DNA from: a virus
Lineage: Duplodnaviria; Caudoviricetes
DNA length: 64,000 nucleotides
Virus record (IMG/VR): IMGVR_UViG_3300037484_000235
Coordinates: 160,001 to 224,000 of that record
Strand: one strand, 5' to 3'
The notes beneath the pieces were generated by a model that was not told where the DNA came from, did no database searches, and saw nothing but the letters and a program-made list of their open reading frames with translations. A program made the translations under genes and the position numbers. Position 1 is the stretch's first letter, and each line of letters starts with the position of its first letter. Below, one piece after another: positions 30 through 57,378 of this stretch.

Positions 30-1139
30 ATGCCAACTGAGGCAGGTGGACACCCAGCATCGAAGGCTGCTTCGCGTGACGTCAGGGCGGCCATGGAGCA
101 CAAGGCTAGCAAGTGCATTCGTGTCGCTCAGTCGATGCTTGGCCGTAAGGCAAGCGTAGACATGATCGAAGATCAGGCTCTTGACCTCATGAACCTCACG
201 GATCGTCAGATTCAAGCGATGCTCACACGTATCGCTGTGGACGAAGATGAGACCGAGGAAGAGGATGAGGACGTAGCGGAGCCTGTCGCTGCCAAGAAGG
301 CAGACGACGAGTCCGAGGACGAAGAGGAAGATGAGGTGGAAACAGCAGCCAAGAAGGCCGCTCACTTCACTCGCCTTGCTGCCTTCTGGACGGATGCAGC
401 CAAGAAGTCCGCCAAGAAGTCTGAGGACGAGGATGATGAGGATGAGGATGAGAAGATCCTCACCGCCATGCTCAAGGAAGAGTCCAAGAAGGCTGCTCGC
501 AAGTCCGCCAAGAAGTCTGAGGACGAGGATGAGACCAAGGACGAAGAGGCTCCCAAGAAGGAAGCTAAGAAGTCTGAGGACGAGACCGAGACCGAAGACG
601 AAGAGGCCCCCAAGAAGGAAGCCAAGAAGTCTGAGGACGAGACCGAGACCGAAGAGTCTGAGGACAAGGCGGACAAGACAGCCTGCGGCGAAGACGAAGC
701 GCTTCTAGCCAGCATGGTTGCGGACATGGACTCGCCAATGGCCGACGACATGGATCCAATGGACGACATGGACCCAATGGACCCCATGATGGATGATCCA
801 ATGGCTCTCATGGACTCCGATGACATGGGTATGAGCGACGACGACATGGGCCTTCTTTACGGAAGCCGCTTTGCCAAGAAGTCTGAGGGCGACGAGCCCG
901 ATGGCGACGAAGCAGAGGAGCCAAAGAAGGAAGAGCCGAAGAAGGATGAGGCCAAGACGGCTGCTTCCAGGACCGCTGCGGCCAAGCGCACCGCTGCACT
1001 CAAGCCACAGCCCCGCCTGGCATCAACAGGCGTTCGCACCCTCGGTACGGTCACCAAGACCGCATCTTCGACAGAGATCACTGACCTCTCAAAGCTTTGG
1101 GAGTCCGCTCCTGATGTATCGAAGGTATTTGGGAACTGA
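30..1139 (+). CDS. Acidic low-complexity capsid scaffold/prohead core-like protein (probably 5'-truncated by the window)
   Basis: The frame is open back to position 3. The protein is very D/E/K-rich with repeated AKKSEDE units and a short conserved-looking C-terminus (LSKLWESAPDVSKVFG). It lies two genes upstream of the major capsid gene. Confidence 0.65.
   Translation: MPTEAGGHPASKAASRDVRAAMEHKASKCIRVAQSMLGRKASVDMIEDQALDLMNLTDRQIQAMLTRIAVDEDETEEEDEDVAEPVAAKKADDESEDEEEDEVETAAKKAAHFTRLAAFWTDAAKKSAKKSEDEDDEDEDEKILTAMLKEESKKAARKSAKKSEDEDETKDEEAPKKEAKKSEDETETEDEEAPKKEAKKSEDETETEESEDKADKTACGEDEALLASMVADMDSPMADDMDPMDDMDPMDPMMDDPMALMDSDDMGMSDDDMGLLYGSRFAKKSEGDEPDGDEAEEPKKEEPKKDEAKTAASRTAAAKRTAALKPQPRLASTGVRTLGTVTKTASSTEITDLSKLWESAPDVSKVFGN
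412..660 (+). repeat. Degenerate tandem AAGAAGTCTGAGGACGAG (KKSEDE) repeats in the scaffold
   Basis: At least four copies; two 60-nt units are near-identical. Confidence 0.8.
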
Positions 1140-1175
1140 TTTCCCGCAACAAAATAGCCTAAAAGGCTGATCGTG

Positions 1176-1215
1176 AGGGGCTGTGCGAAAAAATCGCACG
1201 GCCCCTTTCGTTTTT
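1176..1215 (+). terminator. Intrinsic terminator-like hairpin
   Basis: GGGGCTGTGCG-AAAAAAT-CGCACGGCCCC stem-loop followed by TTTCGTTTTT, just after the scaffold stop. Confidence 0.7.
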
Positions 1216-1342
1216 CCGCTAATAGCAATCACTTATACTGACAGGGCAATGATTGCCAGGTCCCACTCACAAGGTGTGGGTGGAGTTCTAGGTCACGATC
1301 CAACACCACTCCCCGAACAGGGAGCAAGACAGGAGCAAGGCT

Positions 1343-2023
1343 ATGCCATTGCTTGGACAGGCGAGCGGTGGGTGGACGGAAAGCTCTTCAGCTCTGAGGA
1401 TTCTCCACGTCGGTATTCGCAATACCGTCGGAGTCCTCTCGGATGACGCGTTTCGTCAGGTAAATCCACCCATCACGAGCACCGCAGGAACAGTCAGCAC
1501 ATCGCCCGGAGCCCTCACTGAGGTCTTCGGAGTCCTCTCGGGTTCGGTCGCGTTCACGCGTCCAGACGCGGGAACCAACCACATCGGCGGTCCCGTGAAC
1601 GTCGCTGTGTCCGGTGTGACCGCAGCACAGGCGCTCAACACGCGCCCACTTGGTTGCTTCATCAACAACGCCGCAGGAAACCCCTACGAGAACCTCCCAG
1701 CGAGCGCCTCGAACAAGGGTCCCTACGTCGCCGCGATGGGCACGTACGGAAACCGTCTCTACGAGACGCAGCTGCTTCAGGCAGCGGCCCCTCTCGGCCA
1801 GGGCGACGCGATCCCCTACCTCACCGGACAAGAGCTGATCTCGTCGATGAACGGGTATCTCATGCCACGCGGGTACGACAACGCAGGTGCGTTCGTCTCC
1901 CTCGACATCGCGACGATCGCGATTGAGCCCGAGAACGGCACGGCGGTTTCGCACCTCCTTGGCGTCCTCAAGATGGTCCCTGACTCCGTAATGACCGAAC
2001 TCGTCTACGACGCTCGCGTCTGA
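1343..2023 (+). CDS. Putative head decoration/minor capsid protein
   Basis: The 226-aa ORF is small-residue and beta-rich, sits between scaffold and MCP, and has a strong RBS (AGGAG). The call rests on synteny. Confidence 0.55.
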   Translation: MPLLGQASGGWTESSSALRILHVGIRNTVGVLSDDAFRQVNPPITSTAGTVSTSPGALTEVFGVLSGSVAFTRPDAGTNHIGGPVNVAVSGVTAAQALNTRPLGCFINNAAGNPYENLPASASNKGPYVAAMGTYGNRLYETQLLQAAAPLGQGDAIPYLTGQELISSMNGYLMPRGYDNAGAFVSLDIATIAIEPENGTAVSHLLGVLKMVPDSVMTELVYDARV

Positions 2024-2034
2024 GGAAACCAGCC

Positions 2035-2913
2035 ATGACCACCACAGTCAACAACGCCGTCAAGCAGAAGATCATCAGCGACTACCTCAAGACAGCTTCG
2101 GGCCGTAACAAGCTCGCAGCGTCGATGACGCAGCCGCTCCGCACTCGCCGCGACTACATGAGCGTCGGTCGCAAGACCTTCCTCGTGGAGCAGCTCCCCG
2201 ATGGTGCGCTTCCGATCTACGACAAGGACCCGGACGTCACCGCGTTCGTGGTCGGCGAGGAAGGCGAGAACATCCTCGCCATCACCAAGCCACGCCGTGT
2301 GATCTTCCCGCTGTTCGAGATCGCATCGAACCCGGAAATCCCACTCACGCAGATCAAGGAGCGTCGCTTCGATCTGATCGAACGCGCCCAGGATCTTGCG
2401 CGTGCGCAGATTCAGGCAGCAGAAGACGAGCGTGTCTTCGCAGTGCTTGACGCAATCGCAGTCAACGGATTCGACTCGCTTCCCGGCGGGACGAACGCTG
2501 ACATCCCGGTCATCGCACCGATCACCGGCGCGGTACTCGCAGACGCCTTCTCGCTCATCGAGCGCCACGACCTTCGGGTTGCTCGCGTTTACATGAACGC
2601 GCGGGACTACGCGGATATCCGCAAGTTCGGTCGGGACATCCTGGACATCGAGTCCCAGGCCACCCTGCTCAAGACCGGACTTCAGGCCACCCTCTGGGGC
2701 GCCCAGGTCATCACGAGCCGTCTCGTCCCCGTCGGCACCGTGTACGTGTGCTGCGAGCCCGAGATGTTTGGACGCATTCCCGTACGTACGGAACTCACGG
2801 TCCTGTCTGCCGACGACCCGAAGGCCCGCACGATTGGATTTTCGGTCTTCGAAAATTTGGGCATCGGCGCATACAACCCACGTGGGTTGGTCCGACTCAC
2901 GATCACTCGCTGA
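2035..2913 (+). CDS. Major capsid protein (HK97 fold)
   Basis: 292 aa with segments typical of large-phage MCPs (PLFEIASNPEIPLTQIKERRFDLIERAQDLARAQIQAAEDERVF; GFSVFENLGIGAYNPRG). Highly biased codon usage, RBS GAGGA and a downstream terminator support the call. Confidence 0.85.
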   Translation: MTTTVNNAVKQKIISDYLKTASGRNKLAASMTQPLRTRRDYMSVGRKTFLVEQLPDGALPIYDKDPDVTAFVVGEEGENILAITKPRRVIFPLFEIASNPEIPLTQIKERRFDLIERAQDLARAQIQAAEDERVFAVLDAIAVNGFDSLPGGTNADIPVIAPITGAVLADAFSLIERHDLRVARVYMNARDYADIRKFGRDILDIESQATLLKTGLQATLWGAQVITSRLVPVGTVYVCCEPEMFGRIPVRTELTVLSADDPKARTIGFSVFENLGIGAYNPRGLVRLTITR

Positions 2914-2941
2914 TCGTAAACCCCTGTAAAATAGGGTGACT

Positions 2942-8964: not shown

Positions 8965-9582
8965 ATGGCGTCCCTCAGGTCCAAGGTGATTCGACTAGCA
9001 CACTCCCGGCCGGAGCTTCGCCCGGCTCTTCTTCCTCTGTTGAAGGCGGCTTCCGAAGAGGAGAACGAGAGTGAGGCGCAGGCCAGGGCTATTCTAGAGA
9101 AGAACCTGGAGCCCCTCAAGAGAGGCTTCTGGAAGCCCCCACACAATCTGGCCCTCAACTTTGCACTGATGGGCGCGAACCTGTGGACGTTCACCATCCT
9201 CCCGCTCTTCTGGAAGAAGCAGGGTTATCGGGCTGACCTCAACGGGATTGTGATCCAACCCCTCTGGCGGTCCGTGCAGAGTGGCACCACCCTCGGGTAT
9301 AGGAATACGTCGGGATTTGCTATCCTGACTCCTGATGTTGCCCAGAGCATCGTGAGTCTGATTGGACGGGCGGAGTCAATCCAGGACACAGTCCGGGAAG
9401 AGCTTCGGCTCATCGAGACTCACTTCGGGATTGAGATTCCAAGTCAGATCAAGACGTCCCTTGCATCTACCGACATGCTGAAGGTTGCAAAACGCCGTTG
9501 GCGTGTGGACACCCTCAAGCTCAAGAAGCGCCTCATCCCATTTGATGGCAGCAAGCCTAGAGACCTGGGCTCGTTCGATTGA
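8965..9582 (+). CDS. Leader-bearing putative head cargo protein 1
   Basis: Starts MASLRSKVIRLAHSRPELRPALLPLLKAAS; the rest is unrecognised. Confidence 0.7.
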   Translation: MASLRSKVIRLAHSRPELRPALLPLLKAASEEENESEAQARAILEKNLEPLKRGFWKPPHNLALNFALMGANLWTFTILPLFWKKQGYRADLNGIVIQPLWRSVQSGTTLGYRNTSGFAILTPDVAQSIVSLIGRAESIQDTVREELRLIETHFGIEIPSQIKTSLASTDMLKVAKRRWRVDTLKLKKRLIPFDGSKPRDLGSFD

Positions 9583-11443: not shown

Positions 11444-12526
11444 ATGACCACCACCAAGATTGCAATGCCTCGCGAGCGCCACTTCTCCTACAACGACCCC
11501 AAGGCTCCAGGGTCTCCGTGGGGTTCAACTCAGTCGCTTTACGATCATCCCACACTGCGGGGCGTCCGTATCGTGAGCACAGCAAGTCATGGTGGTATGG
11601 GTATCGCGGGTGGTATTGCCCGCAAGGTGCTCTCTCCGGCTGCGTACAAGATCGGGGAGAAGTACGGTGGGTACGTTTGGTTTGAAGAGGACGTTGGGAT
11701 CAGCATCCCCTACTACGAGCACCCTGAGTGGTATCCGCTCCTGGTGGGGAAGCCACTTACGGATGCTGTGAAGATGGACCTGGAGCGTAGTATCCGCCAA
11801 TCGTACCCTCGGTACTTCAAGATGCGGGAAGAGGGCTACAAGCTTCCTGAAGCACTTCGGGTCGGTGACACCCTCCGTGTCATTCTGCCAATCCATCTCT
11901 CTCGTGGACCTGGGCTTGCGGTTGGGGATTTGCTTTTGGTCACGAAGCTGACTGCCACGTATTTCTACGCATCGTCGCCCACAAGGACGAGCTTGCGGAT
12001 CAAGCTCCCTGTTGGGTACTACCTGGGTGCAACTGGGTGGGGCACCACGGAAGACAAGATCTACGTAGAAAAGGTGCCAAGCCCAGCTCGGGTCGCTGCC
12101 CTTAAGCTATCTGGAAGGAAGGAGAAGCCGCCAGAGACGCATGCTGTGCGCATGGAAAAGATCCTCAAGGATTTCGACAAATCAGTAGCCAAGCGCTGGC
12201 CTGGTGTAAAGCATGAGAAGGCGTCCTTTGGAAAGATTGAGGATGACACACCGATCATGCCTTGGGTAGTGGCGCAGTCTGTTATCGAGGAGGCCCAAAA
12301 GGAAACGGGGGCCTCGTTGAATGTCCGTAATCTAGTGCGGAGTCTCTCAACTCGGGCACAGACCACCTACGAGCACAATGAGGATTTTCGTAAGAAGGTC
12401 CGTGGTCGTGGGGACTCTGGTCGTGATACTCTCTATGCTTTTATGCGACACTGGCTAGCAGCCTACCTTAAGAAAGAGCAACCCGACGTCTTTCGAAAGC
12501 TTCCAGGTGACTGGTTTTCAAGGTAG
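11444..12526 (+). CDS. Multidomain protein with an N-terminal DUF7007-like domain
   Basis: SPWGSTQ...VSTASHGG...WFEED pattern recalled for DUF7007; a second domain follows SPARVAALKL. Confidence 0.55.
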   Translation: MTTTKIAMPRERHFSYNDPKAPGSPWGSTQSLYDHPTLRGVRIVSTASHGGMGIAGGIARKVLSPAAYKIGEKYGGYVWFEEDVGISIPYYEHPEWYPLLVGKPLTDAVKMDLERSIRQSYPRYFKMREEGYKLPEALRVGDTLRVILPIHLSRGPGLAVGDLLLVTKLTATYFYASSPTRTSLRIKLPVGYYLGATGWGTTEDKIYVEKVPSPARVAALKLSGRKEKPPETHAVRMEKILKDFDKSVAKRWPGVKHEKASFGKIEDDTPIMPWVVAQSVIEEAQKETGASLNVRNLVRSLSTRAQTTYEHNEDFRKKVRGRGDSGRDTLYAFMRHWLAAYLKKEQPDVFRKLPGDWFSR

Positions 12527-13750: not shown

Positions 13751-13816
13751 TAGGGCTCGTTCGGTAACTCTCGGATAATGTTGGCAGGTGAGGAGCACCT
13801 TGCTTCTCCAGCCAAC

Positions 13817-14590
13817 ATGAAACGAACTAAGACAGCTTCGAGTCAGGTCGCATGGTCCCTTCTTGCGGAGGGTGTGACCCAGGCTCGTGTAGACATCCAT
13901 CGTTTGAGGCTCTTGATCGATAGAGCACAAGCCATGGTCGAGAAGTCCGAGGAACGAGAGCACATTTGGCAGGTGGCAGGTGACGTGATTCAGGGGATCC
14001 CTGATACGTTGTCCTCTGCGGAACGTGCTCTTGATCGAACCTCCTACGCCCTATCCGTTATGGGAGAGGATTTCCTACGTGGCAGATTATCATTTGATGA
14101 TCGTGCCAGAGTCGATGGCGCCGTGAAAACTTCCCCGTTCTCAGGAAATCGTGGGAAGGACTCAATGGCGTCCAGGGTAGCCCGTCGGTATCTTCTGGTT
14201 CAGGGTGTTGGTGGGAGGGGCTCAATGGAGTCCCGGGTGTCTCGCCGATACCTTTTGGCTCAGGGTGTTGCCCCAAGCGCAGAGGCCTACTTCTTCCACA
14301 ATCCGGAAATGAGGGAGGTCAGGCAACTCAGTGAGTCCAAAGCTATCTCTAATGACACCGGTGTGGCCGTCAATACGGTAAAGGGGTTGGAGTCTCCGGA
14401 TAGAACTGTATCCAAGGCACGTAGTGAGTCAAACAAGGCTCCGCCTACTCCGGATCAGATCAAGAGGATGCCAGGGGGTGCTGAGTTCTCCACTCTCAAT
14501 CGGTTCCTTGTGGAGACAGGACAGCCTGGGGTTCACGGTGTACCCGAAGGTCATTGGGAAGTCCCTAAACACCCTAAGTTGAAGCGGTGA
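13817..14590 (+). CDS. Hypothetical virion-associated protein with duplicated SRVxRRYL motif
   Basis: Likely start MKRTKTASS (alternative start 13778). Contains SMASRVARRYLLVQGV and SMESRVSRRYLLAQGV at a 60-nt period. Confidence 0.65.
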   Translation: MKRTKTASSQVAWSLLAEGVTQARVDIHRLRLLIDRAQAMVEKSEEREHIWQVAGDVIQGIPDTLSSAERALDRTSYALSVMGEDFLRGRLSFDDRARVDGAVKTSPFSGNRGKDSMASRVARRYLLVQGVGGRGSMESRVSRRYLLAQGVAPSAEAYFFHNPEMREVRQLSESKAISNDTGVAVNTVKGLESPDRTVSKARSESNKAPPTPDQIKRMPGGAEFSTLNRFLVETGQPGVHGVPEGHWEVPKHPKLKR

Positions 14591-41678: not shown

Positions 41679-42749
41679 TTATCGATTTGGATCGTAGGGT
41701 CTTCCGGATGGATCCGTGATGTAGAGGTCGTCATCCTCGGCATCTGTAATCCGGAATCCAGGATCTAACCCAAGGTCTTTTTCGACCGAAGCCTGCGTCT
41801 CAAGCATCTCCAATGCTTTGTTGATGGCGCGGGCAGCTGGAGGCATGCGGGAACCGCGCAGGGCGTACATGGACACCCTTCGGAGTAAGTTCGCGAAGGC
41901 GATGGCCTCATCCTCTGGGAAGCCAGAGTTCCGGCTTGCTACGACCAGTTCCTTGGCTGACTCAAGGATTTGGGTGGTGTAGAACGTCGTTCGCGAAGCG
42001 CGGCGTTGACCGTGAGGTGAACTGTGTTCGTCTAGTTCACGCAGGACTTCCCAGGGTCGCTTGGGTGTCACGCGTGGATCGTGTGCGTCAAGTGCCAAGG
42101 CCGCCTTGTAGAGAAGGCTGGCAGCCCCACGATTGCCGCCGGACTTGGCGTAGGCCGCACAGGTCAAGAGTACCTGGTGGAAGGCTTCGTCAATGTCTTC
42201 CGTCGAGCTGCGGGCCCCATGGTGCGCGTCCAGAAGGTCTTGAACGTTGGCCTTGAGCAGAAGCGCCTTCGACGCCTGATTTGCCCGCTTGGCCACGGAC
42301 GCCTTCTTGTCGTCCTTCTTGCCCTCTTCGACCTTCTTTTCGCAGTTGTCTCGCATCCCGCCCTCGGGAAGCTTCTCGCAACCGGCGGTCTTGTCAACAT
42401 CCTTGGCCTTCTTGTCGCAAACAGCGCAACGTCCAGAAGACACGTTTCCGAAGGCTCTCGCCTTTGAGACAGCGGACGGCTTGAACTTCTTGCCGCACAG
42501 GGCGACGTTGTTCACGACGTTGGATCCGTCCTCGAATACTGCGTTCTTGAAGGCGTGGGATTCTCCGTCACGTTGGTTGCCAGGACGCGCCCAGGCAACC
42601 TCGATTTTCTCCGGCGTCTCCCCGTGCATGACGGGTTCCCAGAATGGTGCTACCGCAGCTTCCTTGAGAAGGGGGAGCAAGTCAGCCCGGAGAGCCGGGT
42701 TCTGGTGGGCAAGGCGAATGAGGCGTGAGCGGAGGGCTTGGTCTGACAT
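41679..42749 (-). CDS. Leader-bearing putative head cargo protein 2 (multidomain)
   Basis: Starts MSDQALRSRLIRLAHQNPALRADLLPLLKEAA. Contains a Cys/His cluster and segments separated by KTAG, KKAS and RRAS. Confidence 0.75.
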   Translation of the reverse strand: MSDQALRSRLIRLAHQNPALRADLLPLLKEAAVAPFWEPVMHGETPEKIEVAWARPGNQRDGESHAFKNAVFEDGSNVVNNVALCGKKFKPSAVSKARAFGNVSSGRCAVCDKKAKDVDKTAGCEKLPEGGMRDNCEKKVEEGKKDDKKASVAKRANQASKALLLKANVQDLLDAHHGARSSTEDIDEAFHQVLLTCAAYAKSGGNRGAASLLYKAALALDAHDPRVTPKRPWEVLRELDEHSSPHGQRRASRTTFYTTQILESAKELVVASRNSGFPEDEAIAFANLLRRVSMYALRGSRMPPAARAINKALEMLETQASVEKDLGLDPGFRITDAEDDDLYITDPSGRPYDPNR

Positions 42750-49415: not shown

Positions 49416-49892
49416 ATTCCTGTTTTCAGATACCAGTGCGACTGCGGATTGAACTTCTCGACTCGTGTCGCTTCGGCAGCGAGTCCGGTGAAGTGCTCCT
49501 GCGGGTCATTGGCGAAACAAGATCTCCCCCGATCTTTTTCGGTGGGCACGTCTGTTCCTACGAATGGACTCTCTGCCCCATCAACAGGCCTATCGTCACA
49601 TGACTATGTGTTTGACAAGGTTGTGGGAGAAGATGCCAAGGGCAAGTGGGACAAGATTGCGGCCCGCCACAAGGACAAGGTTCGGCTTCTTGAGCAGACT
49701 GGGGCCACAGGATTCGATCTCACCAAGCAGCATGACGGTTCCTACGCCATCATGACCCCCCAGCAGCGGGCTGCCTCTGAACGGACACGGGCATTCCACT
49801 TCAAGATGGATGCTGCGGGTCCGGCTCAAGCCCGAAAGAAGCAGATTGAGGCAACAAGTTTGGTCCCTAAGGATCACAAAAGCCATGTCTGA
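49416..49892 (+). CDS. Second FmdB-family zinc-ribbon protein with apparent ATT start
   Basis: GAGAGG-N5-ATT CCT GTT TTC AGA TAC CAG TGC GAC TGC reads (M)PVFRYQCDC...CSCG. An in-frame TGA at 49401 precludes an upstream ATG. Confidence 0.65.
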   Translation: MPVFRYQCDCGLNFSTRVASAASPVKCSCGSLAKQDLPRSFSVGTSVPTNGLSAPSTGLSSHDYVFDKVVGEDAKGKWDKIAARHKDKVRLLEQTGATGFDLTKQHDGSYAIMTPQQRAASERTRAFHFKMDAAGPAQARKKQIEATSLVPKDHKSHV

Positions 49893-50574
49893 ACTTCGAA
49901 GTAAGCTCATTCGTTTGGCCAACTCTAACCCAGAGTTGCGATCCACATTGCTACCTTTGCTGAAGGAGGGCGCCGCCGAGAAGACCGGGTCCTCTGTCAC
50001 CTATGCGATGGCTGTGAGGGACGCTTCTCTGGAGTTGATTGGAGCGTCAAGAGGAAGTGATGTTACAGACGAGGGGCAGATGCTCATTCTGCTTCTTGCT
50101 GCATGCTCCACATTCGTCAAGAAGGGCAGGATTGGAAGCAATCAGACCGCTATCCTCATCAAAAGGGCAGCCGACTCGTTGTACAAGGAGATGTTCGGGG
50201 AGAGTCCTGATGCGGTGTCACCAGTTGTTGCCGCTCCGACCCCCAGGGATCTGTTCTTTGGTTCGGGCAAGCTAAGTGGGTATGCCCTAGAAGTCATCCG
50301 TGGGATGCAGATGTTGGATGGTGACATCCACACCAAAGGCAAAGTAAATCCCAATGGCTCGGTGGAGTTCATGCATGGTGGTGTCTACGGCACAGTTCTG
50401 GTTGAGATGGGATTGTCCAATGATGCCCGTGCGTGGGTATCTGTGTACACGACTGGGCGTCGGCCCGCTTCCATCATGTTTCCCTCAACCTTCGATGTGA
50501 AGAGCGTGGCTGGGTCAAAGTTTCCCAGGATGCTCCTGAACAAGCTCTCTGACCTGAGTGCTTGGGCTGAGTAA
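49885..50574 (+). CDS. Leader-bearing putative head cargo protein 3
   Basis: Starts MSELRSKLIRLANSNPELRSTLLPLLKEGAA. Confidence 0.75.
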   Translation: MSELRSKLIRLANSNPELRSTLLPLLKEGAAEKTGSSVTYAMAVRDASLELIGASRGSDVTDEGQMLILLLAACSTFVKKGRIGSNQTAILIKRAADSLYKEMFGESPDAVSPVVAAPTPRDLFFGSGKLSGYALEVIRGMQMLDGDIHTKGKVNPNGSVEFMHGGVYGTVLVEMGLSNDARAWVSVYTTGRRPASIMFPSTFDVKSVAGSKFPRMLLNKLSDLSAWAE

Positions 50575-50699
50575 GATTTCCCTCCCGGTGCCTTAGGGCC
50601 CCGTGGTCCACAAACATACCTAACATCCTGCGCTTTCATTTTCTCTCCTTTATTTAGGAGAGGTTGATTCACATCAGTTCTCTCAGGAGCGCGCGAACC

Positions 50700-53600
50700 A
50701 TGCCAAGTCTTCTCCGTGGCGGATACACTCCCCCAGGTGTTTACACCCAGACCACTTTCGGAGTCCCACCGACCCCGACTCCGATTCCAGCTCGTATTCC
50801 CGTGTTCGTCGGGACGGGCACTGAGATCCTCTCTCGGTCGAGTCTCCCTGTCGTGCGTGGCAGTTCCAGCACCATTGACCAACAGGTCGTGGACGAGGAT
50901 GAGGCTGGTCGTGGCGTAGTTAGCGTCACCTCAGGTGGCCTTGTCACTCTTGGGGACTTCGATGGCCTGCTCACGAAGTTCCAGGTCCGCAACCTTCCCA
51001 TCGTCTCTGGCGATGGGACTGGCACCGTTGCGGTCGATACCAGCGCAGTCTCGTGCAAGATCAACGGATTCCCCGTTGTGGTTCTTGGACTTGACGCAGC
51101 CGAGGGCATCGTCGAGCTGTCGGTAGCACCAGTGTCTACGGACGTGGTCCTCTGCACTTACTTCTTCGACCGCACAGACACTCTGACGACGGATGACGTG
51201 TCGGATCAGGTCACTGCTGAGGCGGCGATCATCGATGGCCTTGCGGGACAGAGCTTCGCGTTCGCACTTGCCGCGAACGACGTTTTCTCCCTCTCGGTAG
51301 ATGGATTGGCGTTCGTGAACATCACGATGCCCTCGTCCGCCCCATCGGTGAGCGGCGCAGTGGTAGCAGCAACCATCAACGGCACCGCAGGAATTGGCTC
51401 TCTCGTCGCCACGACCTACGTCAACAACCTTGCTCAGACTTGCATCCGGCTTACGGCCGACAAGTCCATCACCATTGGAACGGGCACGGCGAATACAACC
51501 CTTGGGTTCACGCCTGGTGCAACGACCTCTCGCAATCGTGTGTTCTACACGTTCCAGGGTCCGATCGTCGATGGTTTCGGCGGCGGTACCACAACGACGG
51601 ACCCTTCGTTGGTTGTTGTCCTTGTGGACAGCGTCCAGGTCATCCCAACAGCGGTCAATGGGTCGTCCCGGTCGATCACCTTGCCCTACGCTCCGGCAGT
51701 GGGCTCTACGGTTACGGTCCGCTACTACTTTAACACCTGGCAGGACACGTTCGATTACCTTGCCAACATCGGTGTGACGGAGATCACACGCGCAGCCCTC
51801 ACCCCTGACGGAAGCGTTGCGGGCACATACGTCCAGGGTGTGTCATACGTTCTCAAGGACGACGTGATCGTGTGGGGCACAGCGGCCCTCGTTTCCTCTG
51901 ACGTGCATACAGAGGGTGGGACGACTCTAGGCACCTCGCAAATCCAAGCGATGTTGGTAGACAACCAGGTCTACCTTGCCCCCTGCGCAACGACCGTGGA
52001 CAGCACAGGCCCAGTCTCGGTTGCAAGTCGTACGGTCTTCCAGCTTCCATACCAGCCCACGACGGGTAATGGACGGGGTAATCCCCTGGGTTCGACGCTG
52101 TACGCGTCTGTCGCCAACGGGCGGATGGATCTCCCAACGAATCGCCCCGACCTCATCACAGCCTACTGGGGCTTCGGCGTTCAGGATGCAGTGGATCGTG
52201 GCGCGGTTGCGGTCCTCAAGGTGGACAGCGAGACTTCGCAGATCACACTCGGTTCGAGTGTGCCTGAAGGTGCAAGCGTCTACGCCTCGTTCTACTACAA
52301 CACGCTTGTGGACATGGCGAACATCGGTTCGAGCCACGCATACACACTAACGTGTGTGACGCCTGGACCTGGCGGAATCGGAACGTATTCCATCGCTGAT
52401 GGTGAGGGAGTCCTGCTTTTCGGGGCGAGCCTTACAGCCAAGGGAAGCGACCTCACGACCGTAGACGTGATGTTCCCTTCGGGCTCCGAGTTCTTCCCAG
52501 ACGCGCATGTCTCGGGCGGGGCGCCTGTCGAGGAGACTGTCACAGTCCAGTTCGCTACGTCGGACGTGACACCTGCTCGGTTCACGAACCTCGGACCTGG
52601 CCCGTACTACATGATCGACAACACCTCGGATCGTCTCCGGGTGACGTTCGATGCGGCGGCACAGCAGACGGGTCTTGCGGCTGGTATGGACCTCTCCGCC
52701 CCAACGCTGGGCACACGCGCCGGTGCATTCGCCTCTCTTCTGGGTGAAGAGATTGCGTACACAGCGGCCTCCGGTGAAACCACCTACGACCTCACCTCCG
52801 GTGTGGATGATGCCCTCGATCTCATCGTAGACGGTGTGCCCCTGACCGTAGCAGTCGGTACTGCCCCAGGTACAACGGCTGCGGGCTTTGTTACGGCCAT
52901 CAACGCAGCGGCCGTCGCTGCGGGCAATGAGCCCTACTACGACACCGCGGGTACGTTCACGAGCTTCATTGTCACGGTGAACGAGTACGACCAGCTTCGT
53001 CTTCACTACACGGGTGGCACCAACGGTGCGTCCGGTGTTGAGACGATCACCATCACCCCTGGTACCTACGCATCTCTCGGTGCGCTTGTTACCGAGATCA
53101 ATGCGCAGCTTGCGCTGATCAACGGTCTGTCCAGCACCGCTCTGTTCGGTTGGGTGACGGCTTCGGCTCTCTCTTCCGGCAAGATCCGATTCACTCTCGA
53201 AATCGGAAAGGGTATGGATACCCTGACCTTCGGTGGTATCCCAATCGCGGGTGAGACTGTTACGATCAATGCCAAGATCTATACGTTCCGAGCGGTCATC
53301 AACGGAGCATCTGTAGACGGTGATGTCCTCATCGGAACGGCGAGCGGTTCGCTCGACAACCTGATTGCAGCCATCAATCTCGGTGCAGGCTCAGGCGTCA
53401 CCTACGCAGCGGCAATGACTCTTCACCCCACGGTGTCTGCGGTTGCGGGCGCAGGCGTCACGATGATCGCATACGCCAAGGCAGTTGGAACTGCGGGCAA
53501 CGCAATCACCGATGCAACCAACGTTACACTTGGTGCATGGACGAACGCAGCTCCCGCTGGATTCTTTGCGGGTGGCGATGACACGGGTTACCTGGAGTTC

Positions 53601-56027
53601 ATCGCAAACGCCACACCAGCTCGGGACTTCGCGATCATCGCGGGTATTGACACTGGCACGGCAATCAGCCTCAACCAGACCAAGATCTACAATGGTCCAA
53701 TCGCTCGCCGCTTCACTGTGGCTACGACAGCGGGCCGCTTGCCCTACGACCGGATCATCCTCCGCAATCGTCTCTTCCCAGGTGGGGCTTCGCTGTCTTA
53801 CGTACCTACCCTTGCACAGACTGGAATCACCCTTCAGGGTGGGACCGGTGCAACCAAGGCCGGGCTTCTCAATGGGGAGACGGCTGAGGCTGTGTTCGGG
53901 GCAAACGTCAAGAATCCTACCATTGTCGCCCTCACGGGATGGGCTGGCGGACAGGTAGCAACGGCTACCTACGGTGACGCACGGGACGGCCAGGCAAATG
54001 TCACCTTCTACGATGGGACGGACCCTGCCAATCCTGCCAACAACCTCATGACTTTCACCGCCGGTGGAAGTCTCGTGACGGTGACCTTCACGGCTTCGGC
54101 CTTGGGTACGGCTACGGCACTAGGCCCCGTCACTGTCGCGGGCTCTGTGCTTGGTCAGATCAACGCGGCCATCGTGGCTGCAAGCCTCACAGCGGTCGTC
54201 TCTGTCCAACAGGAGGGTGCGGCCATCCGCCTTGTTGGCGGCGGCGTCGGCCCCGCAGCAACCCTGGTCATCGGGGCAGGAAGCGCGAACGACACACTCG
54301 GATTTGTCGAGGACGACTCGGCAGCTCCGGTTCCAGTCTCCACCCGCCAGCTTGCTTCGGCACTCATGGGTGCCAGCCAGTCGAGCGCAAACTTCACTGT
54401 CGCGATGCTCAGCTACTCGGCACCGGACGCAGCGTACTTCGCAGGTCGAGCCCTCGCCGGAATCAAGGTGGACTCGACGGGCAACGTCTACCTCTACCTC
54501 CAGAGCCTGACCCTGGGCACTGCGTCGAGCATCGACTTCGGAGACGCAACCTCGAACAACGCCCTGGTGACAGGGACCTTGCTCCTCATCACGTCGGCGG
54601 ACGGATCGTCTGGCGAGGCAGCCATCAACGGCTACTTCGTGACCAGCTCGAATCCCGGGCTGGGCTCGGGTTCGGCCGATACCTCGGTGTTCAACTCGGG
54701 TACGGGCCAAGACGGTGTGGTTGGACAGACGTATGTCGATGACGTGTCTGGCTTGACCTTCACCATTCTGCCTCGCTCGGGTGGCATTGCCTACCCAGTT
54801 GGTGTGAATGCCACGCTCAACTTCCGTGTGAGCAAGACGTTCACGACGGATGGCAACATCCCCACTCTCGCAATCCCCGGAGTCGAACTCACGGTCACGA
54901 ACACATCGGGTGTGGTCGCGCTGGACTCGGCCTTCGTGGAGACCTTCAAGAAGACGGGAGACGAGCCTACCAATGGGCAGATCTACTACGTCAGCTACAA
55001 CTACGCGAAGCAGGACTTCACCCCAAAGTTCTTCTCTCGCCTCTCGGAAGTCGTCACTGAGTACGGGCCTGTCAGCCCTGACAACCCGCTCTCTCTGGCA
55101 GCCCACATCGCCTTCCTAGGCGGTTCGTCTGTCATCGCTACCTATCAGGTGCTCAAGACGACTGGGTCGTCTCAGGCGAGCGAGCAGGCGTACTTGGATG
55201 CGCTTGTAGCTCTTGAGGGCAGCTCACTCCCAGGGAACATCATCCCAACAGTGCTGGTCCTTCTGACTCCAGCCACAGCAAACCTAGCGAAGCAGACAGC
55301 CATCCACTGCGACGTGCAGAGCAGCATCCGCTACCGTGCGGAGCGTACCGCGGTCTTCGGTTTCGCTTCGGGCACCCAGCCTTCCCAGGTTGGCACAATC
55401 TCCCAGGCAACAGGATCGACACGTGTTCGGTTTGTCTACCCAGACATCTGGACAATCACGATCACCGATGTACTTGGAACCTCCAAGGCATATCTCGTGG
55501 ATGGTCGCTACATGGCAGCCTCCGTGGCAGCCTCCACGACCGCACCCTCTATCGACTCTGCAACTCCATGGACTGGTCGGCTTCTCCCAGGCTGGACTGC
55601 CAGTGGGCGGTCTCTGGACGCTGTGGAGGCAAATCAGGTCGCGTCCAAGGGCGTGACCGTGATCGAAGAGAAGTTGCCGAACATGCGGATTCGGCATGGC
55701 CTCACGTCAGACATGACCAATGTCCTGACGAAGATCCCAACGGTCATTCAGATCGCTGATGACATGCAGCGTCGTGCACGCGCAGTGCTCGACCAGTTCG
55801 TGGGTGTCAAGTTCCTCCCACAGATCCTCGGACAGATCGAGGGACAGCTGAGCGAGATGTTCAAGCGCGCCGTGCAGGAACAGATCATCACGAGCTTCAC
55901 GGGTATCAGCGTGGTTCTCGACCCTGAGGATCCCACTGCCACTCTGGTAGAAGCCTTCTACCTCCCCGTCTTCCCTCTTTTGTATCTCCAGCTAAACTTC
56001 AGGGTGTCTTCACAGTCGAACATTTGA
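50700..56027 (+). CDS. Tail sheath protein with large insertions (about 1775 aa)
   Basis: N-terminal YTPPGVYT and a C-terminal sheath domain (VTVIEE...IRHGLT...IADDMQRRAR..LDQFVG...EAFYLPVFPLLYLQLNF). Start ATG 50700 after AGGAG. Confidence 0.9.
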   Translation: MPSLLRGGYTPPGVYTQTTFGVPPTPTPIPARIPVFVGTGTEILSRSSLPVVRGSSSTIDQQVVDEDEAGRGVVSVTSGGLVTLGDFDGLLTKFQVRNLPIVSGDGTGTVAVDTSAVSCKINGFPVVVLGLDAAEGIVELSVAPVSTDVVLCTYFFDRTDTLTTDDVSDQVTAEAAIIDGLAGQSFAFALAANDVFSLSVDGLAFVNITMPSSAPSVSGAVVAATINGTAGIGSLVATTYVNNLAQTCIRLTADKSITIGTGTANTTLGFTPGATTSRNRVFYTFQGPIVDGFGGGTTTTDPSLVVVLVDSVQVIPTAVNGSSRSITLPYAPAVGSTVTVRYYFNTWQDTFDYLANIGVTEITRAALTPDGSVAGTYVQGVSYVLKDDVIVWGTAALVSSDVHTEGGTTLGTSQIQAMLVDNQVYLAPCATTVDSTGPVSVASRTVFQLPYQPTTGNGRGNPLGSTLYASVANGRMDLPTNRPDLITAYWGFGVQDAVDRGAVAVLKVDSETSQITLGSSVPEGASVYASFYYNTLVDMANIGSSHAYTLTCVTPGPGGIGTYSIADGEGVLLFGASLTAKGSDLTTVDVMFPSGSEFFPDAHVSGGAPVEETVTVQFATSDVTPARFTNLGPGPYYMIDNTSDRLRVTFDAAAQQTGLAAGMDLSAPTLGTRAGAFASLLGEEIAYTAASGETTYDLTSGVDDALDLIVDGVPLTVAVGTAPGTTAAGFVTAINAAAVAAGNEPYYDTAGTFTSFIVTVNEYDQLRLHYTGGTNGASGVETITITPGTYASLGALVTEINAQLALINGLSSTALFGWVTASALSSGKIRFTLEIGKGMDTLTFGGIPIAGETVTINAKIYTFRAVINGASVDGDVLIGTASGSLDNLIAAINLGAGSGVTYAAAMTLHPTVSAVAGAGVTMIAYAKAVGTAGNAITDATNVTLGAWTNAAPAGFFAGGDDTGYLEFIANATPARDFAIIAGIDTGTAISLNQTKIYNGPIARRFTVATTAGRLPYDRIILRNRLFPGGASLSYVPTLAQTGITLQGGTGATKAGLLNGETAEAVFGANVKNPTIVALTGWAGGQVATATYGDARDGQANVTFYDGTDPANPANNLMTFTAGGSLVTVTFTASALGTATALGPVTVAGSVLGQINAAIVAASLTAVVSVQQEGAAIRLVGGGVGPAATLVIGAGSANDTLGFVEDDSAAPVPVSTRQLASALMGASQSSANFTVAMLSYSAPDAAYFAGRALAGIKVDSTGNVYLYLQSLTLGTASSIDFGDATSNNALVTGTLLLITSADGSSGEAAINGYFVTSSNPGLGSGSADTSVFNSGTGQDGVVGQTYVDDVSGLTFTILPRSGGIAYPVGVNATLNFRVSKTFTTDGNIPTLAIPGVELTVTNTSGVVALDSAFVETFKKTGDEPTNGQIYYVSYNYAKQDFTPKFFSRLSEVVTEYGPVSPDNPLSLAAHIAFLGGSSVIATYQVLKTTGSSQASEQAYLDALVALEGSSLPGNIIPTVLVLLTPATANLAKQTAIHCDVQSSIRYRAERTAVFGFASGTQPSQVGTISQATGSTRVRFVYPDIWTITITDVLGTSKAYLVDGRYMAASVAASTTAPSIDSATPWTGRLLPGWTASGRSLDAVEANQVASKGVTVIEEKLPNMRIRHGLTSDMTNVLTKIPTVIQIADDMQRRARAVLDQFVGVKFLPQILGQIEGQLSEMFKRAVQEQIITSFTGISVVLDPEDPTATLVEAFYLPVFPLLYLQLNFRVSSQSNI

Positions 56028-56053
56028 CCTGTGTAGGGACCGGATGAAAGCTG

Positions 56054-56099
56054 AACTAGAGCGGAGTCGGGGACAAAATCCTCAGGCTCCGTTCTAGTT
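56054..56099 (+). terminator. Long hairpin after the sheath gene
   Basis: AACTAGAGCGGAGTC ... GGCTCCGTTCTAGTT inverted repeat. Confidence 0.55.
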
Positions 56100-56130
56100 T
56101 CTAGCCTATCTCACACGTCTGGAAAGAGCT

Positions 56131-57378
56131 ATGTCCAATCCACTCTCCAAACTCGTCCGGTTGGCACAGTCAAATCCAGAGCTTGCCACCATCTTGAAGC
56201 CAGAGCCATTGGCTTCTCGGGTTGCGGACGCAGCTAGGAAGGCGGGGATGCTGGGCCGCACTTCTCTTGAGGCATTCGTCTTCAAGAGGTTTCCGCCTGA
56301 CAACAAGATGAAGGGTGGGGGGCGGCTGATGGTGATGCTTACGGGCAACACCGCAACAGCAGTTGGTGTCCCCAACTACACCACTAGGTACTTGGACCAG
56401 CTTGACGACGATCAGCTCAAGGCCCTCGTGGATGCGGTAGATCCTCACGGACATGGTTATCGCCTGGCGGGCTACGGGCGAGGCTACGGATCGTCCTACA
56501 AGGGTGACCCCAGGTGGATGGAAGCCAAGTACCCTGGCGTGGACTCCAAAGGCAACTCTTTCCGTAAGGGAGAGGAAGTCCTCTACTGGCCTTCGACAAA
56601 GACCTTCATGACGGGCCCTGAAGCCAAGGCGGCTTGGCAGAAGTTCCTGTCCGAGAAGGGCGACGAAGAGGGCAATCCATACGCTCGTGCGGCTTCTGCT
56701 AAGCGGGTTGTTGCCACTTTTCTTCCCACATGTTCGGATGGCACCCCCGCAGAGTATGATGATGGGTTAGACGCTTATGCGTGTCCATCGACTGGGGAGG
56801 TTGGACCAAACGGACCTGCCTACCAAAAGTGTGCGGCTCACGGTGCGGTTTCTGTCAGGCGGGTAGCGGGGGAAATTGACCACTCAATCGCTCGCCGACA
56901 GGCAGCATTGGTGTTGAAGGGGCTCAGGCCCTCTACTCGTGCAGGAGTTCTCAAGGAACTTCTTGCAAGGATCACGGGGGATGCTGTCCTCATGGATTAT
57001 CTCTACCGGGAGACCGTCTCTGGTTCCTACGCAGGTAAAGACGGCAAGCTGAATTACCACATGATGGGGGACCTGTTTGGGGGGCCCGTCGCACAGTGGA
57101 AAGAGCGCAATGAGATTGAGGACAATCCCGCCTATGAAGAGTTGTCTCTTGACCCCAAGCTTGCAGCAGGAATTGAGAAGGCACTCAAAACCTACCGCCC
57201 ACAGAACCCAACTATCTCCAAGGTTGACTCCATCGACTTTGATAGTGTGAGGATGAAAATCCGCTTCGATCTGACAGACAAGATCAAGCGCCTTCAGGCC
57301 GGAAACAGCACGGACCCCGCTGGAGACGCAGCGGAAATCGCCCGCATCTTCGAAGAACTAGCAAGGATGTTCAAGTGA
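56131..57378 (+). CDS. Leader-bearing putative head cargo protein 4 (multidomain)
   Basis: Starts MSNPLSKLVRLAQSNPELATIL. Small domains are separated by RKAG, RLAG, RAAS and RVAG. Confidence 0.75.
   Translation: MSNPLSKLVRLAQSNPELATILKPEPLASRVADAARKAGMLGRTSLEAFVFKRFPPDNKMKGGGRLMVMLTGNTATAVGVPNYTTRYLDQLDDDQLKALVDAVDPHGHGYRLAGYGRGYGSSYKGDPRWMEAKYPGVDSKGNSFRKGEEVLYWPSTKTFMTGPEAKAAWQKFLSEKGDEEGNPYARAASAKRVVATFLPTCSDGTPAEYDDGLDAYACPSTGEVGPNGPAYQKCAAHGAVSVRRVAGEIDHSIARRQAALVLKGLRPSTRAGVLKELLARITGDAVLMDYLYRETVSGSYAGKDGKLNYHMMGDLFGGPVAQWKERNEIEDNPAYEELSLDPKLAAGIEKALKTYRPQNPTISKVDSIDFDSVRMKIRFDLTDKIKRLQAGNSTDPAGDAAEIARIFEELARMFK

What the first reader, a model, noticed from the sequence alone, without database searches (positions are those of the whole stretch)
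30..57378. Recurrent [KR]-x-A-[AGS] junctions suggest a prohead protease cutting after Ala and polyprotein-like cargo
Seen in sequence: the scaffold is full of these motifs (KAAS, HKAS, RKAS, KKAA, RLAA, KTAC, KTAA, RTAA, RLAS, KTAS). The leaders end in KAAS or KEAA. The same motif falls at apparent domain boundaries in 15178 (RQAG, RLAG, KRAM, KEAS), 41679 (KTAG, KKAS, RRAS), 56131 (RKAG, RLAG, RAAS, RVAG), 13817 (KTAS), 11444 (KIAM, RVAA) and near the MCP N-terminus (KTAS). Established knowledge: T4 gp21 and phiKZ gp175 process scaffold and internal head proteins at short motifs ending in Glu. Inference: this lineage uses a basic-x-Ala specificity and releases several small effectors from one ORF.
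Basis: inference. Interest (0 to 1): 0.7.

Follow-up and report, generated by a model that had tools for sequence, protein, structure and literature searches.

The report
Head-protease cut-site code, huge phage
A huge uncultured phage marks its head scaffold, its head protease, a shared address peptide and the joints of several multi-part proteins with the same short Lys/Arg-x-Ala-Ser/Gly/Ala site, which most likely tells a herpesvirus-like capsid protease where to cut, though no cut has been measured.

Summary
The window comes from a huge phage of the phage G / Tunturi_5 group. The head protease lies just upstream of the window and overlaps the true start of the scaffold gene. Its model has the T4 gp21 / herpesvirus assemblin fold.

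- **Enrichment:** [KR]-x-A-[AGS] (sharper as [KRH]-x-A-S) is 5-9 times over expectation in the scaffold. It is the top multi-copy pattern in 48 diverged scaffold orthologues (456 vs 115 expected; reverse motif 152).
- **Conserved positions:** it marks invariant positions in disordered stretches on both sides of the protease domain. It also marks a site 24 residues from the scaffold C-end.
- **Controls:** the tail sheath and other large ORFs show no excess (13 vs 15.4).
- **Module joints:** eleven of the 15 listed non-scaffold sites (in 56131, 15178, 41679, 11444) sit where homology to stand-alone or differently combined modules starts or stops.
- **Tags:** 29 of 42 leader tags end in the motif.
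- **Unsupported sites:** MCP KTAS (most relatives have KTP), KRAM and RRAS.

Cleavage, packaging and any "effector" role are unmeasured. This scan reported the same code earlier, in this genome and in at least eight others.

The parts
3..1139 (+). Scaffold protein, C-terminal 378 codons. The gene starts 160 nt upstream of the window (genome 159841, 432 aa) and overlaps the protease stop codon by 4 nt.
   Evidence: Acidic protein between protease and MCP. Orthologues align from residue 1. It has 11 sites vs 2.27 expected.
63..74 (+). KAAS, one of six N-terminal conserved site columns of the scaffold (full-protein positions 14, 29, 73/77, 89, 104)
   Evidence: Site present in 25-38 of 45-48 orthologues per column
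1014..1025 (+). RLAS site in the conserved scaffold C-terminal block (R-x-A-S-T-G)
   Evidence: 40 of 48 orthologues
1056..1067 (+). KTAS, the best-conserved scaffold site, 24 residues from the C-end (candidate release site, like the herpesvirus M-site)
   Evidence: 46 of 48 orthologues; Ala invariant. Myrna gp97 has RTAS 20 aa from its end.
1068..1136 (+). Near-invariant scaffold tail (DLSKLWESAPDVSKVFG); its role as the capsid-binding end is inferred
   Evidence: Invariant L, W, P, D, F columns in 48 orthologues. Binding to the MCP is not shown.
1343..2023 (+). Decoration-like protein, by position (as phage G gp26 and Tunturi_5 gp333); no motif site
   Evidence: Gene order; 0 sites
2035..2913 (+). 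Major capsid protein (HK97 fold). KTAS at 2089-2100 is not conserved; KLAAS at 2110-2124 is invariant.
   Evidence: 39% identical to phage G gp27 / PDB 6wkk. Clade consensus is KTP-x-G.
8965..9582 (+). Tag-bearing protein: tag at 8974-9042, junction KAAS at 9043-9054
   Evidence: Leader HMM E 1e-13; coordinates checked
11444..12526 (+). Two-part protein (DUF7007 module, residues 5-217). KIAM at 11456-11467 and RVAA at 12089-12100 lie at the module's ends.
   Evidence: In relative G002 the module sits inside a 558-aa protein, preceded by KKAS. Homology stops at RVAA.
13817..14590 (+). Protein with N-terminal KTAS (13829-13840) and two tandem internal RVxRRYLL helices
   Evidence: [KR]-x-A-S-S in 4 of the 6 orthologue N-termini shown (KKSS in a fifth, L109 not visible). 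The two halves are separate ORFs in G004.
15178..17214 (+). Multi-module protein. Sites: RQAG 15688-15699, RLAG 16060-16071, KEAS 16774-16785. KEAS is followed by an internal RVAKRLAEML helix (16786-16848).
   Evidence: The N-module (residues 9-168) stands alone in 51 short homologues. Orthologues in G001 and G003 start at residue 169/170. The 296-453 module is a separate ORF in G005. AF2 pLDDT falls from 91 to 45 at residue 171 and is below 50 at 173-285 and 454-557.
41679..42749 (-). Tag-bearing protein. KEAA (42654-42665) ends the tag. KTAG (42381-42392) and KKAS (42297-42308) bracket a portable 22-aa Cys module.
   Evidence: The same module, with the same brackets, occurs in two other tag proteins of this genome and alone in G001 at 77% identity.
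49885..50574 (+). Tag-bearing protein (likely start at the Met just before the tag). The junction KEGAA does not fit the motif strictly.
   Evidence: Leader HMM
50664..56027 (+). Tail sheath, used as negative control: no site
   Evidence: tblastn to the sheaths of Tunturi_5 and phage G; 0 sites vs 3.1 expected
56131..57378 (+). String of tag plus four modules. Joints: RKAG 56236-56247, RLAG 56461-56472, RAAS 56686-56697, RVAG 56860-56871.
   Evidence: 202 library hits fall into four separate blocks: about 30-104, 110-199, 183-231 and 243-415. Each block occurs in other contexts.
57375..57683 (+). Small tag-bearing protein (102 aa); the tag ends in KEAA
   Evidence: Leader HMM E 3e-14

Best explanation
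[K/R/H]-x-Ala followed by Ser (less often Gly, Ala or Met) is most likely the recognition site of this phage's own prohead protease. That protease is a gp21/assemblin-fold serine protease encoded directly upstream of the scaffold gene.

Inferred mechanism:
1. The protease frees its catalytic domain by cutting the invariant R25-x-A27 and K295-x-A297 sites in its disordered flanks.
2. It chops the scaffold at about ten sites. It also clips off the scaffold's conserved 23-residue C-terminal tail, which lets the scaffold leave the shell.
3. It removes a portable 23-24-residue two-helix address tag (LRSKLIRLAH..PELR..LLPLL) from unrelated proteins.
4. It separates the modules of multi-part proteins (56131, 15178, 41679, 11444) at their joints.

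Shown here: the motif statistics, its positional conservation, the protease fold, the module shuffling and the disorder at the joints. Inferred only: that cutting happens, that it falls between Ala and the next residue (by analogy with herpesvirus assemblin), and that tagged proteins are inside the prohead when cut.
For: Protease.
- The ORF at genome 158327-159844 overlaps the scaffold start and hits phrog_18299, head maturation protease, at E 2e-14.
- The AF2 model of residues 47-264 aligns to T4 gp21 5jbl (Z 8.6, rmsd 3.6, 128 aa) and to VZV protease 1vzv (Z 8.1). The top 32 rows are all gp21 or herpes proteases.
- H130 and S181 are invariant; H207 is conserved in at least 90% of sequences.
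- R25-x-A27 and K295-x-A297 are invariant inside otherwise variable segments with pLDDT below 50.

Scaffold.
- 48 non-redundant orthologues are all enriched: 456 sites vs 115 expected, 138 after 10-aa block shuffles, and 152 for the reverse motif.
- In an unbiased scan, R.AS (11.6x) and K.AS (8.2x) are the top multi-copy triplets.
- 62% of 516 Ala-Ser dipeptides have R, K or H two residues before the Ala.
- Site columns are conserved while the flanks diverge; KTAS near the C-end is present in 46 of 48.
- Tunturi_5's scaffold has 9 sites vs 2.5 expected, and its protease has HVAS/KVAS after the catalytic domain.

Tags. 29 of 42 distinct tags are followed at once by the motif. C-terminal and internal copies are preceded by H/K-x-A-S.

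Joints. See the parts list.

Controls. The sheath and large untagged ORFs have 13 sites vs 15.4 expected.
Against: - No proteomic or biochemical datum exists for this phage or any relative I could read (the phage G capsid paper is not held).
- In this phage's own scaffold the loose motif equals its reverse (11 vs 11), so part of the count comes from K/A-rich repeats.
- Several sites lie inside confidently folded or hydrophobic regions and are probably chance: KRAM in 15178, RAAS/RLAS in the protease C-domain, and the sites in 49810.
- A crude disorder test over 24 sites was negative.
- The MCP KTAS is not conserved.
- Phage G's scaffold-like gp21 has no site, although its protease carries KVAS/KIAS.
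- The position after Ala is loosely defined (S, A, G, M).
- Only 17 of 103 homologues of module B have the motif at the N-side joint.
Confidence: 0.6

Rival explanations
1. The motif is a short docking or hinge element that is bound but not cut. For example, it could be a repeated contact point for the capsid interior, the protease C-domain or a chaperone. Its place at module joints would then reflect linker preference only.
For: Multivalent short motifs are common in scaffolds. The motif often sits next to docking helices such as KEAS + RVAKRLAEML in 15178. Nothing here shows a cut.
Against: The sites that flank the protease domain lie in disordered, otherwise unconserved linkers. That is the classic layout of self-processing in gp21, phiKZ gp175 and assemblin (PMC9026906). 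Small residues at two adjacent positions fit a protease pocket better than a binding epitope. The tags are bounded on the cargo side whichever end they sit at.
Confidence: 0.15
2. The sites are cut, but the tags and multi-module proteins are not head cargo. The protease, or another enzyme, would process them in the cytoplasm, as in a viral polyprotein strategy, and the tag would dock them to some other assembly.
For: Many tagged proteins in this phage group are reported to be enzymes (earlier notes e1-5365407 and e1-5365408, unchecked). The tag is absent from relative G004, although its MCP is 92% identical, so the tag's partner is not the conserved capsid shell.
Against: Prohead proteases of this fold are known to act inside proheads (PMC9026906). 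The densest substrates here are the scaffold and the protease itself. Several enriched ORFs cluster next to the terminase, portal and protease genes.
Confidence: 0.12
3. The pattern comes from composition and shared ancestry: K/A/S-rich low-complexity sequence inherited by homologous scaffolds, plus chance hits elsewhere.
For: In the phage's own scaffold the forward and reverse counts are equal. Per-ORF counts are not significant in 15178, 13817, 11444 or the MCP. Orthologues are not independent samples.
Against: Across orthologues, [KR].AS outnumbers SA.[KR] by 284 to 34. Block shuffles give 138 against 456 observed. Scaffolds share only 30-60% identity over parts of their length, yet they keep the site columns. 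The sites also coincide with independently defined module boundaries in unrelated proteins.
Confidence: 0.05

Closest known systems
Phage T4 prohead protease gp21 with scaffold gp22 and the capsid targeting sequence (CTS) of IPI-III and Alt
   Same: The protease fold matches (Z 8.6 to 5jbl). The protease gene lies next to the scaffold gene. The scaffold carries many copies of a 3-4-residue site. The protease has candidate self-processing sites at both ends. A short shared N-terminal peptide on unrelated proteins ends in the protease site (PMC9026906 for T4).
   Different: T4 cuts after Glu in L/I-x-E, whereas here the conserved core is basic-x-Ala-Ser. The tag is 23-24 residues and forms two helices, against 10 residues in T4. 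It also occurs internally and at C-termini. Several alternative tags (RVAxRYL, YSYDR) serve the same modules in relatives. There is no Pfam S77 match. Packaging is untested.
Herpesvirus assemblin / pUL26 protease-scaffold system (R-site and M-site, Ala|Ser)
   Same: The protease fold matches (Z 6-8.1 to VZV, PRV, HSV, KSHV, EBV and HCMV proteases). The site core is Ala-Ser. One conserved site lies just after the catalytic domain, and another lies about 24 residues from the scaffold C-end. In the related mycobacteriophage Myrna, protease and scaffold-like region are one 1211-aa protein. The herpes site rules are from my own knowledge.
   Different: The residue two before Ala is basic here, but hydrophobic or Tyr in herpesviruses. 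Protease and scaffold are separate, overlapping genes in this phage. Here the same site also bounds address tags and module joints of many other proteins.
phiKZ gp175 / SPN3US gp245 giant-phage prohead proteases and their processed head and ejection proteins
   Same: These are giant phages in which one gp21-like protease processes many head proteins and removes propeptides, and in which the protease itself is processed at its C-terminus (PMC9026906; abstracts of PMC7411985 and PMC10052503).
   Different: Those proteases cut after Glu (S/A/G-x-E, A-x-E). I found no description there of a shared portable tag or of shuffled multi-module precursors. They belong to a different phage lineage, and this MCP is closest to phage G gp27.

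Membership tests
gp21/assemblin-fold prohead serine proteases (T4 gp21, herpesvirus assemblin) | Characteristic beta-barrel protease fold | tested here: met
   AF2 model (pLDDT 73-93 over residues 40-250). VIA-align gives Z 8.6 to 5jbl_B (rmsd 3.6, 128 aa) and Z 8.1 to 1vzv (rmsd 2.8, 112 aa). The top 32 rows are all this family. Foldseek alone was weak (E 4.5e-3).
gp21/assemblin-fold prohead serine proteases (T4 gp21, herpesvirus assemblin) | Conserved catalytic His and Ser (plus a third His or Asp) in the order His...Ser...His/Asp | tested here: inconclusive
   H130 and S181 are invariant and H207 is at least 90% conserved in 23 orthologues. The spacing resembles that of the known triads (my knowledge). 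No residue-level superposition on a solved active site was done.
gp21/assemblin-fold prohead serine proteases (T4 gp21, herpesvirus assemblin) | Sequence-family membership (Pfam S77/S21 models) | tested here: not met
   No Pfam family at E <= 0.01 and no PDB sequence hit at E <= 1. The only hits are phrog_18299, head maturation protease (E 2e-14), and phrog_2774.
gp21/assemblin-fold prohead serine proteases (T4 gp21, herpesvirus assemblin) | Gene placed with the scaffold and major capsid protein genes | tested here: met
   The order is protease, scaffold (4-nt overlap), decoration-like protein, MCP. Tunturi_5 has the same order.
gp21/assemblin-fold prohead serine proteases (T4 gp21, herpesvirus assemblin) | Cleaves scaffold, itself and head proteins during maturation | not testable with these tools
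   The only evidence is indirect: site statistics and conservation.
T4-type capsid targeting sequence system | One short peptide shared by otherwise unrelated proteins | tested here: met
   There are 11 copies in this genome, 5 of them in the window. Four of five relatives have 8-11 copies each. 44 distinct copies were tabulated.
T4-type capsid targeting sequence system | Protease site at the tag-cargo junction | tested here: met
   29 of 42 tags are followed at once by [KRH].A[AGSM]. C-terminal and internal copies are preceded by H/K-x-A-S. This is met as a motif only, not as a demonstrated cut.
T4-type capsid targeting sequence system | Tagged proteins are packaged in the head and the tag is removed | not testable with these tools
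   No virion proteome exists for this phage or for Tunturi_5.
Herpesvirus-type scaffold release (M-site) | Conserved protease site about 25 residues from the scaffold C-terminus, ahead of a conserved tail | tested here: met
   K-[TV]-A-[SAG] in 46 of 48 orthologues, followed by a near-invariant 23-residue tail. Myrna has RTAS 20 aa from its end.
Herpesvirus-type scaffold release (M-site) | Hydrophobic residue two before the Ala ((V/L/I)-x-A|S) | tested here: not met
   That position is R, K or H in 62% of the scaffolds' Ala-Ser sites.

The most novel reading that the evidence does not exclude
Huge phages of the phage G clade, comprising hundreds of environmental genomes, may run a programmable capsid-cargo system. 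Interchangeable address tags (LRxxLIRLAH, RVAxRYL, YSYDR) would load dozens of unrelated modules into the prohead. An assemblin-like protease with a basic-x-Ala|Ser rule would then strip the tags and cut multi-module precursors into separate proteins for injection. This would be a phage counterpart of both herpesvirus scaffold processing and viral polyprotein strategies.
Probability: 0.4. Interest if true: 0.8.

Novelty: new variant of a known kind. Interest (0 to 1): 0.6.

Why it matters
If the rule holds, it gives a simple sequence key for predicting two things in hundreds of uncultured huge phages. The first is which of the many unknown proteins are processed in, and probably carried by, the capsid. 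The second is what their mature forms are.

It would also be the first phage prohead protease with a herpesvirus-like Ala|Ser core, with release sites placed as in herpesvirus scaffolds. That would tighten the evolutionary link between the two groups.

It is directly testable on cultured relatives (Tunturi_5, phage G, Myrna). The tags could serve as tools for loading foreign proteins into large capsids, as the T4 CTS has done.

I found no description of this code in the papers held. This scan has, however, flagged it repeatedly, so this window adds detail rather than a first sighting.

Tried and rejected
- **Complex prediction.** Complex prediction of the MCP (alignment A4) with the last 60 scaffold residues (A3) gave no verdict: score 0.25, under the mark of 0.32. 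It counts neither for nor against binding.
- **56131 in IMG/VR.** The search for related loci with 56131 found nothing.
- **Family searches.** Pfam and PHROGs gave no family for the scaffold, the tag proteins, 15178 or most structural ORFs.
- **Phage G capsid paper.** PMC7316594 is not held, so I could not check the mature N-terminus of gp27. The 6wkk chain is near full length, which settles nothing.
- **Foldseek.** On the whole 505-aa protease model it gave only weak rows.
- **Alignment A5.** A MAFFT alignment of module fragments to 56131 misplaced modules A and D, so I did not fold it.
- **Protease C-domain as scaffold duplicate.** No similarity was found.
- **MCP maturation at KTAS.** Rejected because the Ala is Pro in most relatives.
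- **Phosphorylation site.** I considered a basic-x-x-Ser kinase site. I rejected it because Ala is the fixed residue while Ser is often Gly, Ala or Met.
- **Disorder test.** The TOP-IDP flank test over 24 sites showed no bias (mean percentile 0.47).


Full report
**What the window is**

The window is G000:C1:160001-224000 of a 252.5-kb viral contig. Its 292-aa major capsid protein (2035-2913) has three informative relatives:
- 93% identical to an uncultured 485-kb phage (LR745208.1).
- 48% identical to Tunturiibacter phage Tunturi_5.
- 39% identical to Bacillus phage G gp27 (PDB 6wkk).

More than 570 IMG/VR contigs encode a relative, and the best 80 are at least 90% identical.

The gene order is protease, scaffold, decoration-like protein, MCP, as in Tunturi_5. 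The gene starts at genome 159841 and encodes 432 aa. It overlaps by 4 nt the stop of a 505-aa ORF (158327-159844) that matches phrog_18299, head maturation protease, at E 2e-14.

**Is the motif more than chance?**

In the window:

| ORF group | [KR].A[AGS] observed | Expected |
|---|---|---|
| Scaffold (full length) | 11 | 2.27 |
| Scaffold, strict [KRH].AS | 7 | 0.75 |
| Protease | 7 | 1.95 |
| Five leader-bearing ORFs together | 18 | 5.39 |
| 15178, 13817, 11444 and MCP together | 7 | 4.15 (not significant) |
| Tail sheath (50664-56027) plus ten large untagged ORFs | 13 | 15.4 |

- Genome-wide, the scaffold ranks first of 288 ORFs, 56131 fifth and the protease sixth. At least six of the eleven leader-bearing ORFs fall in the top 20.
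- One caution applies. In this scaffold alone the loose motif is as frequent as its reverse (11 vs 11), because of K/A-rich repeats.

Comparison across relatives removes that doubt. I extracted 48 non-redundant scaffold orthologues, which share only 30-60% identity over parts of their length.
- All 48 are enriched: 456 sites against 115 expected.
- Shuffling within 10-aa blocks gives 138. The reverse motif gives 152. [KR].AS outnumbers SA.[KR] by 284 to 34.
- An unbiased scan of all residue triplets in four spacings puts R.AS (11.6x) and K.AS (8.2x) on top among patterns that recur within proteins.
- Of 516 Ala-Ser dipeptides, 320 have R, K or H two residues before the Ala.

**Where the sites sit in the head proteins**

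*Scaffold.* The site columns are conserved while the flanks drift. Six lie in the N-terminal 105 residues. Three lie near the C-end, including K-[TV]-A-[SAG] in 46 of 48 orthologues. That site is 24 residues from the C-terminus and is followed by a near-invariant tail, DLSKLWESAPDVSKxFG.

*Protease.* The alignment of 23 orthologues gives the following:
- H130 and S181 are invariant.
- R25-x-A27 and K295-x-A297 are also invariant.
- Those two sites are the only conserved positions in segments that AlphaFold leaves disordered (pLDDT below 50 at 1-34 and 255-341).

The folded domain (47-264) aligns to T4 gp21 (Z 8.6) and to herpesvirus proteases (Z up to 8.1). The first 32 rows of the list hold nothing else.

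This layout repeats what is known for T4 gp21 with gp22, for phiKZ gp175, and for herpesvirus pUL26 (PMC9026906 for the phages; my own knowledge for the herpesvirus R- and M-sites). It has three parts:
- Sites flank the protease domain.
- The scaffold carries many sites.
- One site lies just ahead of a conserved scaffold tail.

*Cultured relatives.*
- Tunturi_5 shows the same pattern: scaffold gp332 has 9 sites vs 2.5 expected, and its protease has HVAS/KVAS after the catalytic domain.
- Myrna gp97, annotated as tape measure, is in fact a protease domain fused to a long scaffold-like region. It has KVAS, and RTAS 20 residues from its end.
- Phage G's protease has KVAS/KIAS after the domain, but its scaffold-like gp21 has no site. 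The rule is therefore not uniform across the wider group.

**Leaders**

An HMM built from the leader finds 11 copies in the genome: 10 N-terminal and one internal. Five of them are in the window: 8965, 41679 (minus strand), 49810 (more likely starting at 49885), 56131 (degenerate) and 57375.
- Across this genome and the fetched relatives, 29 of 42 distinct copies are followed at once by [KRH]-x-A-[AGSM].
- Copies at C-termini or inside proteins are preceded directly by H-A-A-S, H-S-A-S, K-R-A-S or K-K-A-G.
- The site is thus always on the cargo side of the tag.
- The tag occurs 8-11 times in each of four relatives. It is absent from a fifth, whose MCP is still 92% identical. Its partner is therefore unlikely to be the conserved shell.

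**Module joints**

*56131.* A full HMMER search of 1.84 billion representatives gave 202 hits, which fall into four separate blocks:

| Module | Residues | Hits |
|---|---|---|
| A | about 30-104 | about 10 |
| B | about 110-199 | about 120, in proteins of 65 to 1438 aa, at any position |
| C | 183-231 | 2 |
| D | 243-415 | about 14, as stand-alone proteins of about 175-197 aa |

- The block edges fall on RKAG 36, RLAG 111, RAAS 186 and RVAG 244.
- In two close relatives, module B sits in other proteins and is again bracketed, by RVAG or KTSG on one side and RSAS on the other.
- Across representatives, the C-side joint of module B carries the motif in 37 of 80 cases, against 7.7% of background windows. 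The N-side joint carries it in only 17 of 103.
- Stand-alone homologues of module D carry three different N-terminal tags. One is this leader ending in KEAAG.

*15178.*
- The N-module (residues 9-168) is a widespread stand-alone protein: 51 short homologues, with ends clustering at 161-171.
- Orthologues in two relatives start at residue 169/170, right at RQAG. The 296-453 block is a separate ORF in another relative.
- The AlphaFold model drops from pLDDT 91 to 45 at residue 171 and stays below 50 to residue 285.
- RLAG 295 lies at the far end of that linker. KEAS 533 lies in a second disordered stretch, just before a short helix, RVAKRLAEML. KRAM 382 is inside a folded domain.

*41679.* KTAG and KKAS bracket a 22-residue Cys module. 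The same module recurs, with the same brackets, in two other tag proteins of this genome. It also occurs alone in a relative.

*11444.* Residues 5-217 are embedded in a 558-aa protein of a relative. There they are preceded by KKAS, where this phage has KIAM, and homology stops at RVAA 216.

*13817.* The N-terminal K-T-A-S-S is kept in four of the six orthologue N-termini shown.

*MCP.* KTAS is not kept: most relatives read K-T-P-x-G.

*Tally.* Eleven of the fifteen listed non-scaffold sites sit at independently defined joints. One more is conserved. Three have no support (KRAM, RRAS, MCP KTAS). By my rough count, about nine of fourteen internal homology breakpoints lie within four residues of a site, where about one would be expected.

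**What remains inference**
- Nothing here shows a cut, the exact bond, or the presence of tagged proteins in heads.
- Cutting between Ala and the next residue rests on the analogy with assemblin.
- The modules have no recognisable function, so 'effectors' is a guess.
- Several motif occurrences are surely chance.
- The test of scaffold-tail binding to the MCP gave no verdict.

**Known or new**

The kind of system is known: a prohead protease, a cleavable scaffold and a capsid address tag. Four features look new compared with the papers I could search:
- the basic-x-Ala-Ser rule;
- the herpes-like placement of sites in a phage;
- the long portable tag, used at either end of the cargo;
- the shuffled multi-module precursors.

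The scan's own earlier notes describe the same code in this genome and in at least eight others. I reached the same reading from independent tests on this window.

Noticed in passing
window 46338-47432 (+): A 364-aa actin-like protein matches Pfam Volactin (PF25216) at E 3e-67. It lies among tail/baseplate-region genes of a huge phage.
   Followed up: no
window 3032-5626 (+): An 864-aa ORF directly downstream of the MCP carries a LAGLIDADG_2 homing-endonuclease domain and a C-terminal zf-CGNR finger. It looks like a mobile insertion in the head module.
   Followed up: no
window 6454-7023 (+): A 189-aa protein has an N-terminal membrane helix and a matrixin-type zinc metalloprotease motif (HELGHCLGLAHD; Pfam Peptidase_M10, E 4e-7). 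It is a second, unrelated protease near the head genes.
   Followed up: no
L114 1635-5270 (Mycobacterium phage Myrna gp97): Annotated as tape measure, this protein starts with a domain homologous to this prohead protease (same SMG...C-x-x-C...C-x-H block). It ends in a scaffold-like tail with KVAS and RTAS. It looks like a protease-scaffold fusion, as in herpesvirus pUL26, and so is probably mis-annotated.
   Followed up: partly
loci L004-L083 (MCP and scaffold genes): The MCP is at least 90% identical across 80 contigs from records of 200 to 618 kb. The adjacent scaffold falls to about 30% identity, with an expandable acidic middle (390-765 aa). This is extreme rate contrast between neighbouring genes.
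   Followed up: partly
proteins P0005, P0006, P0020, P0023, P0097, P0164, P0177 (homologues of 15178 N-module and 56131 module D): A third short terminal tag, Y-x-YDRR or YSYDR-TAA, appears at N- or C-termini of the same modules that elsewhere carry the LRxxLIRLAH or RVAxRYL tags. It often runs straight into an R-T-A-A site.
   Followed up: no
window 13778-14590 (+), residues about 140-175: Two tandem copies of a 20-residue unit (G.{4}SM[AE]SRV[AS]RRYLL.QGV) hold the RVAxRYL-type helix seen as a docking tag in related phages. In relative G004 the protein is split into two ORFs at this point.
   Followed up: partly
window 18427-19197 and 19272-20324 (+): These neighbouring paralogues share conserved N- and C-terminal blocks (MPFICxRRxDIxxGVLQxTDFWPN...; ...VLRVLxGATYTVPA...) around a variable Ala/Thr-rich middle. 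No family was found.
   Followed up: no
window 25077-36371 (+): A single 3764-aa ORF begins with five or more repeats of a unit of about 19 residues (GIASAEAFG...). No site enrichment (6 vs 5.8). Identity unknown.
   Followed up: no
genome 153591-156965 (L003 8591-11965), upstream of the window: A 1124-aa ORF between portal and protease fuses a HAD (Swiss-army-knife RNA repair type) domain with a eukaryotic-type topoisomerase IB core (Pfam E 5e-27). It also contains an internal RVSTRYLL helix.
   Followed up: no
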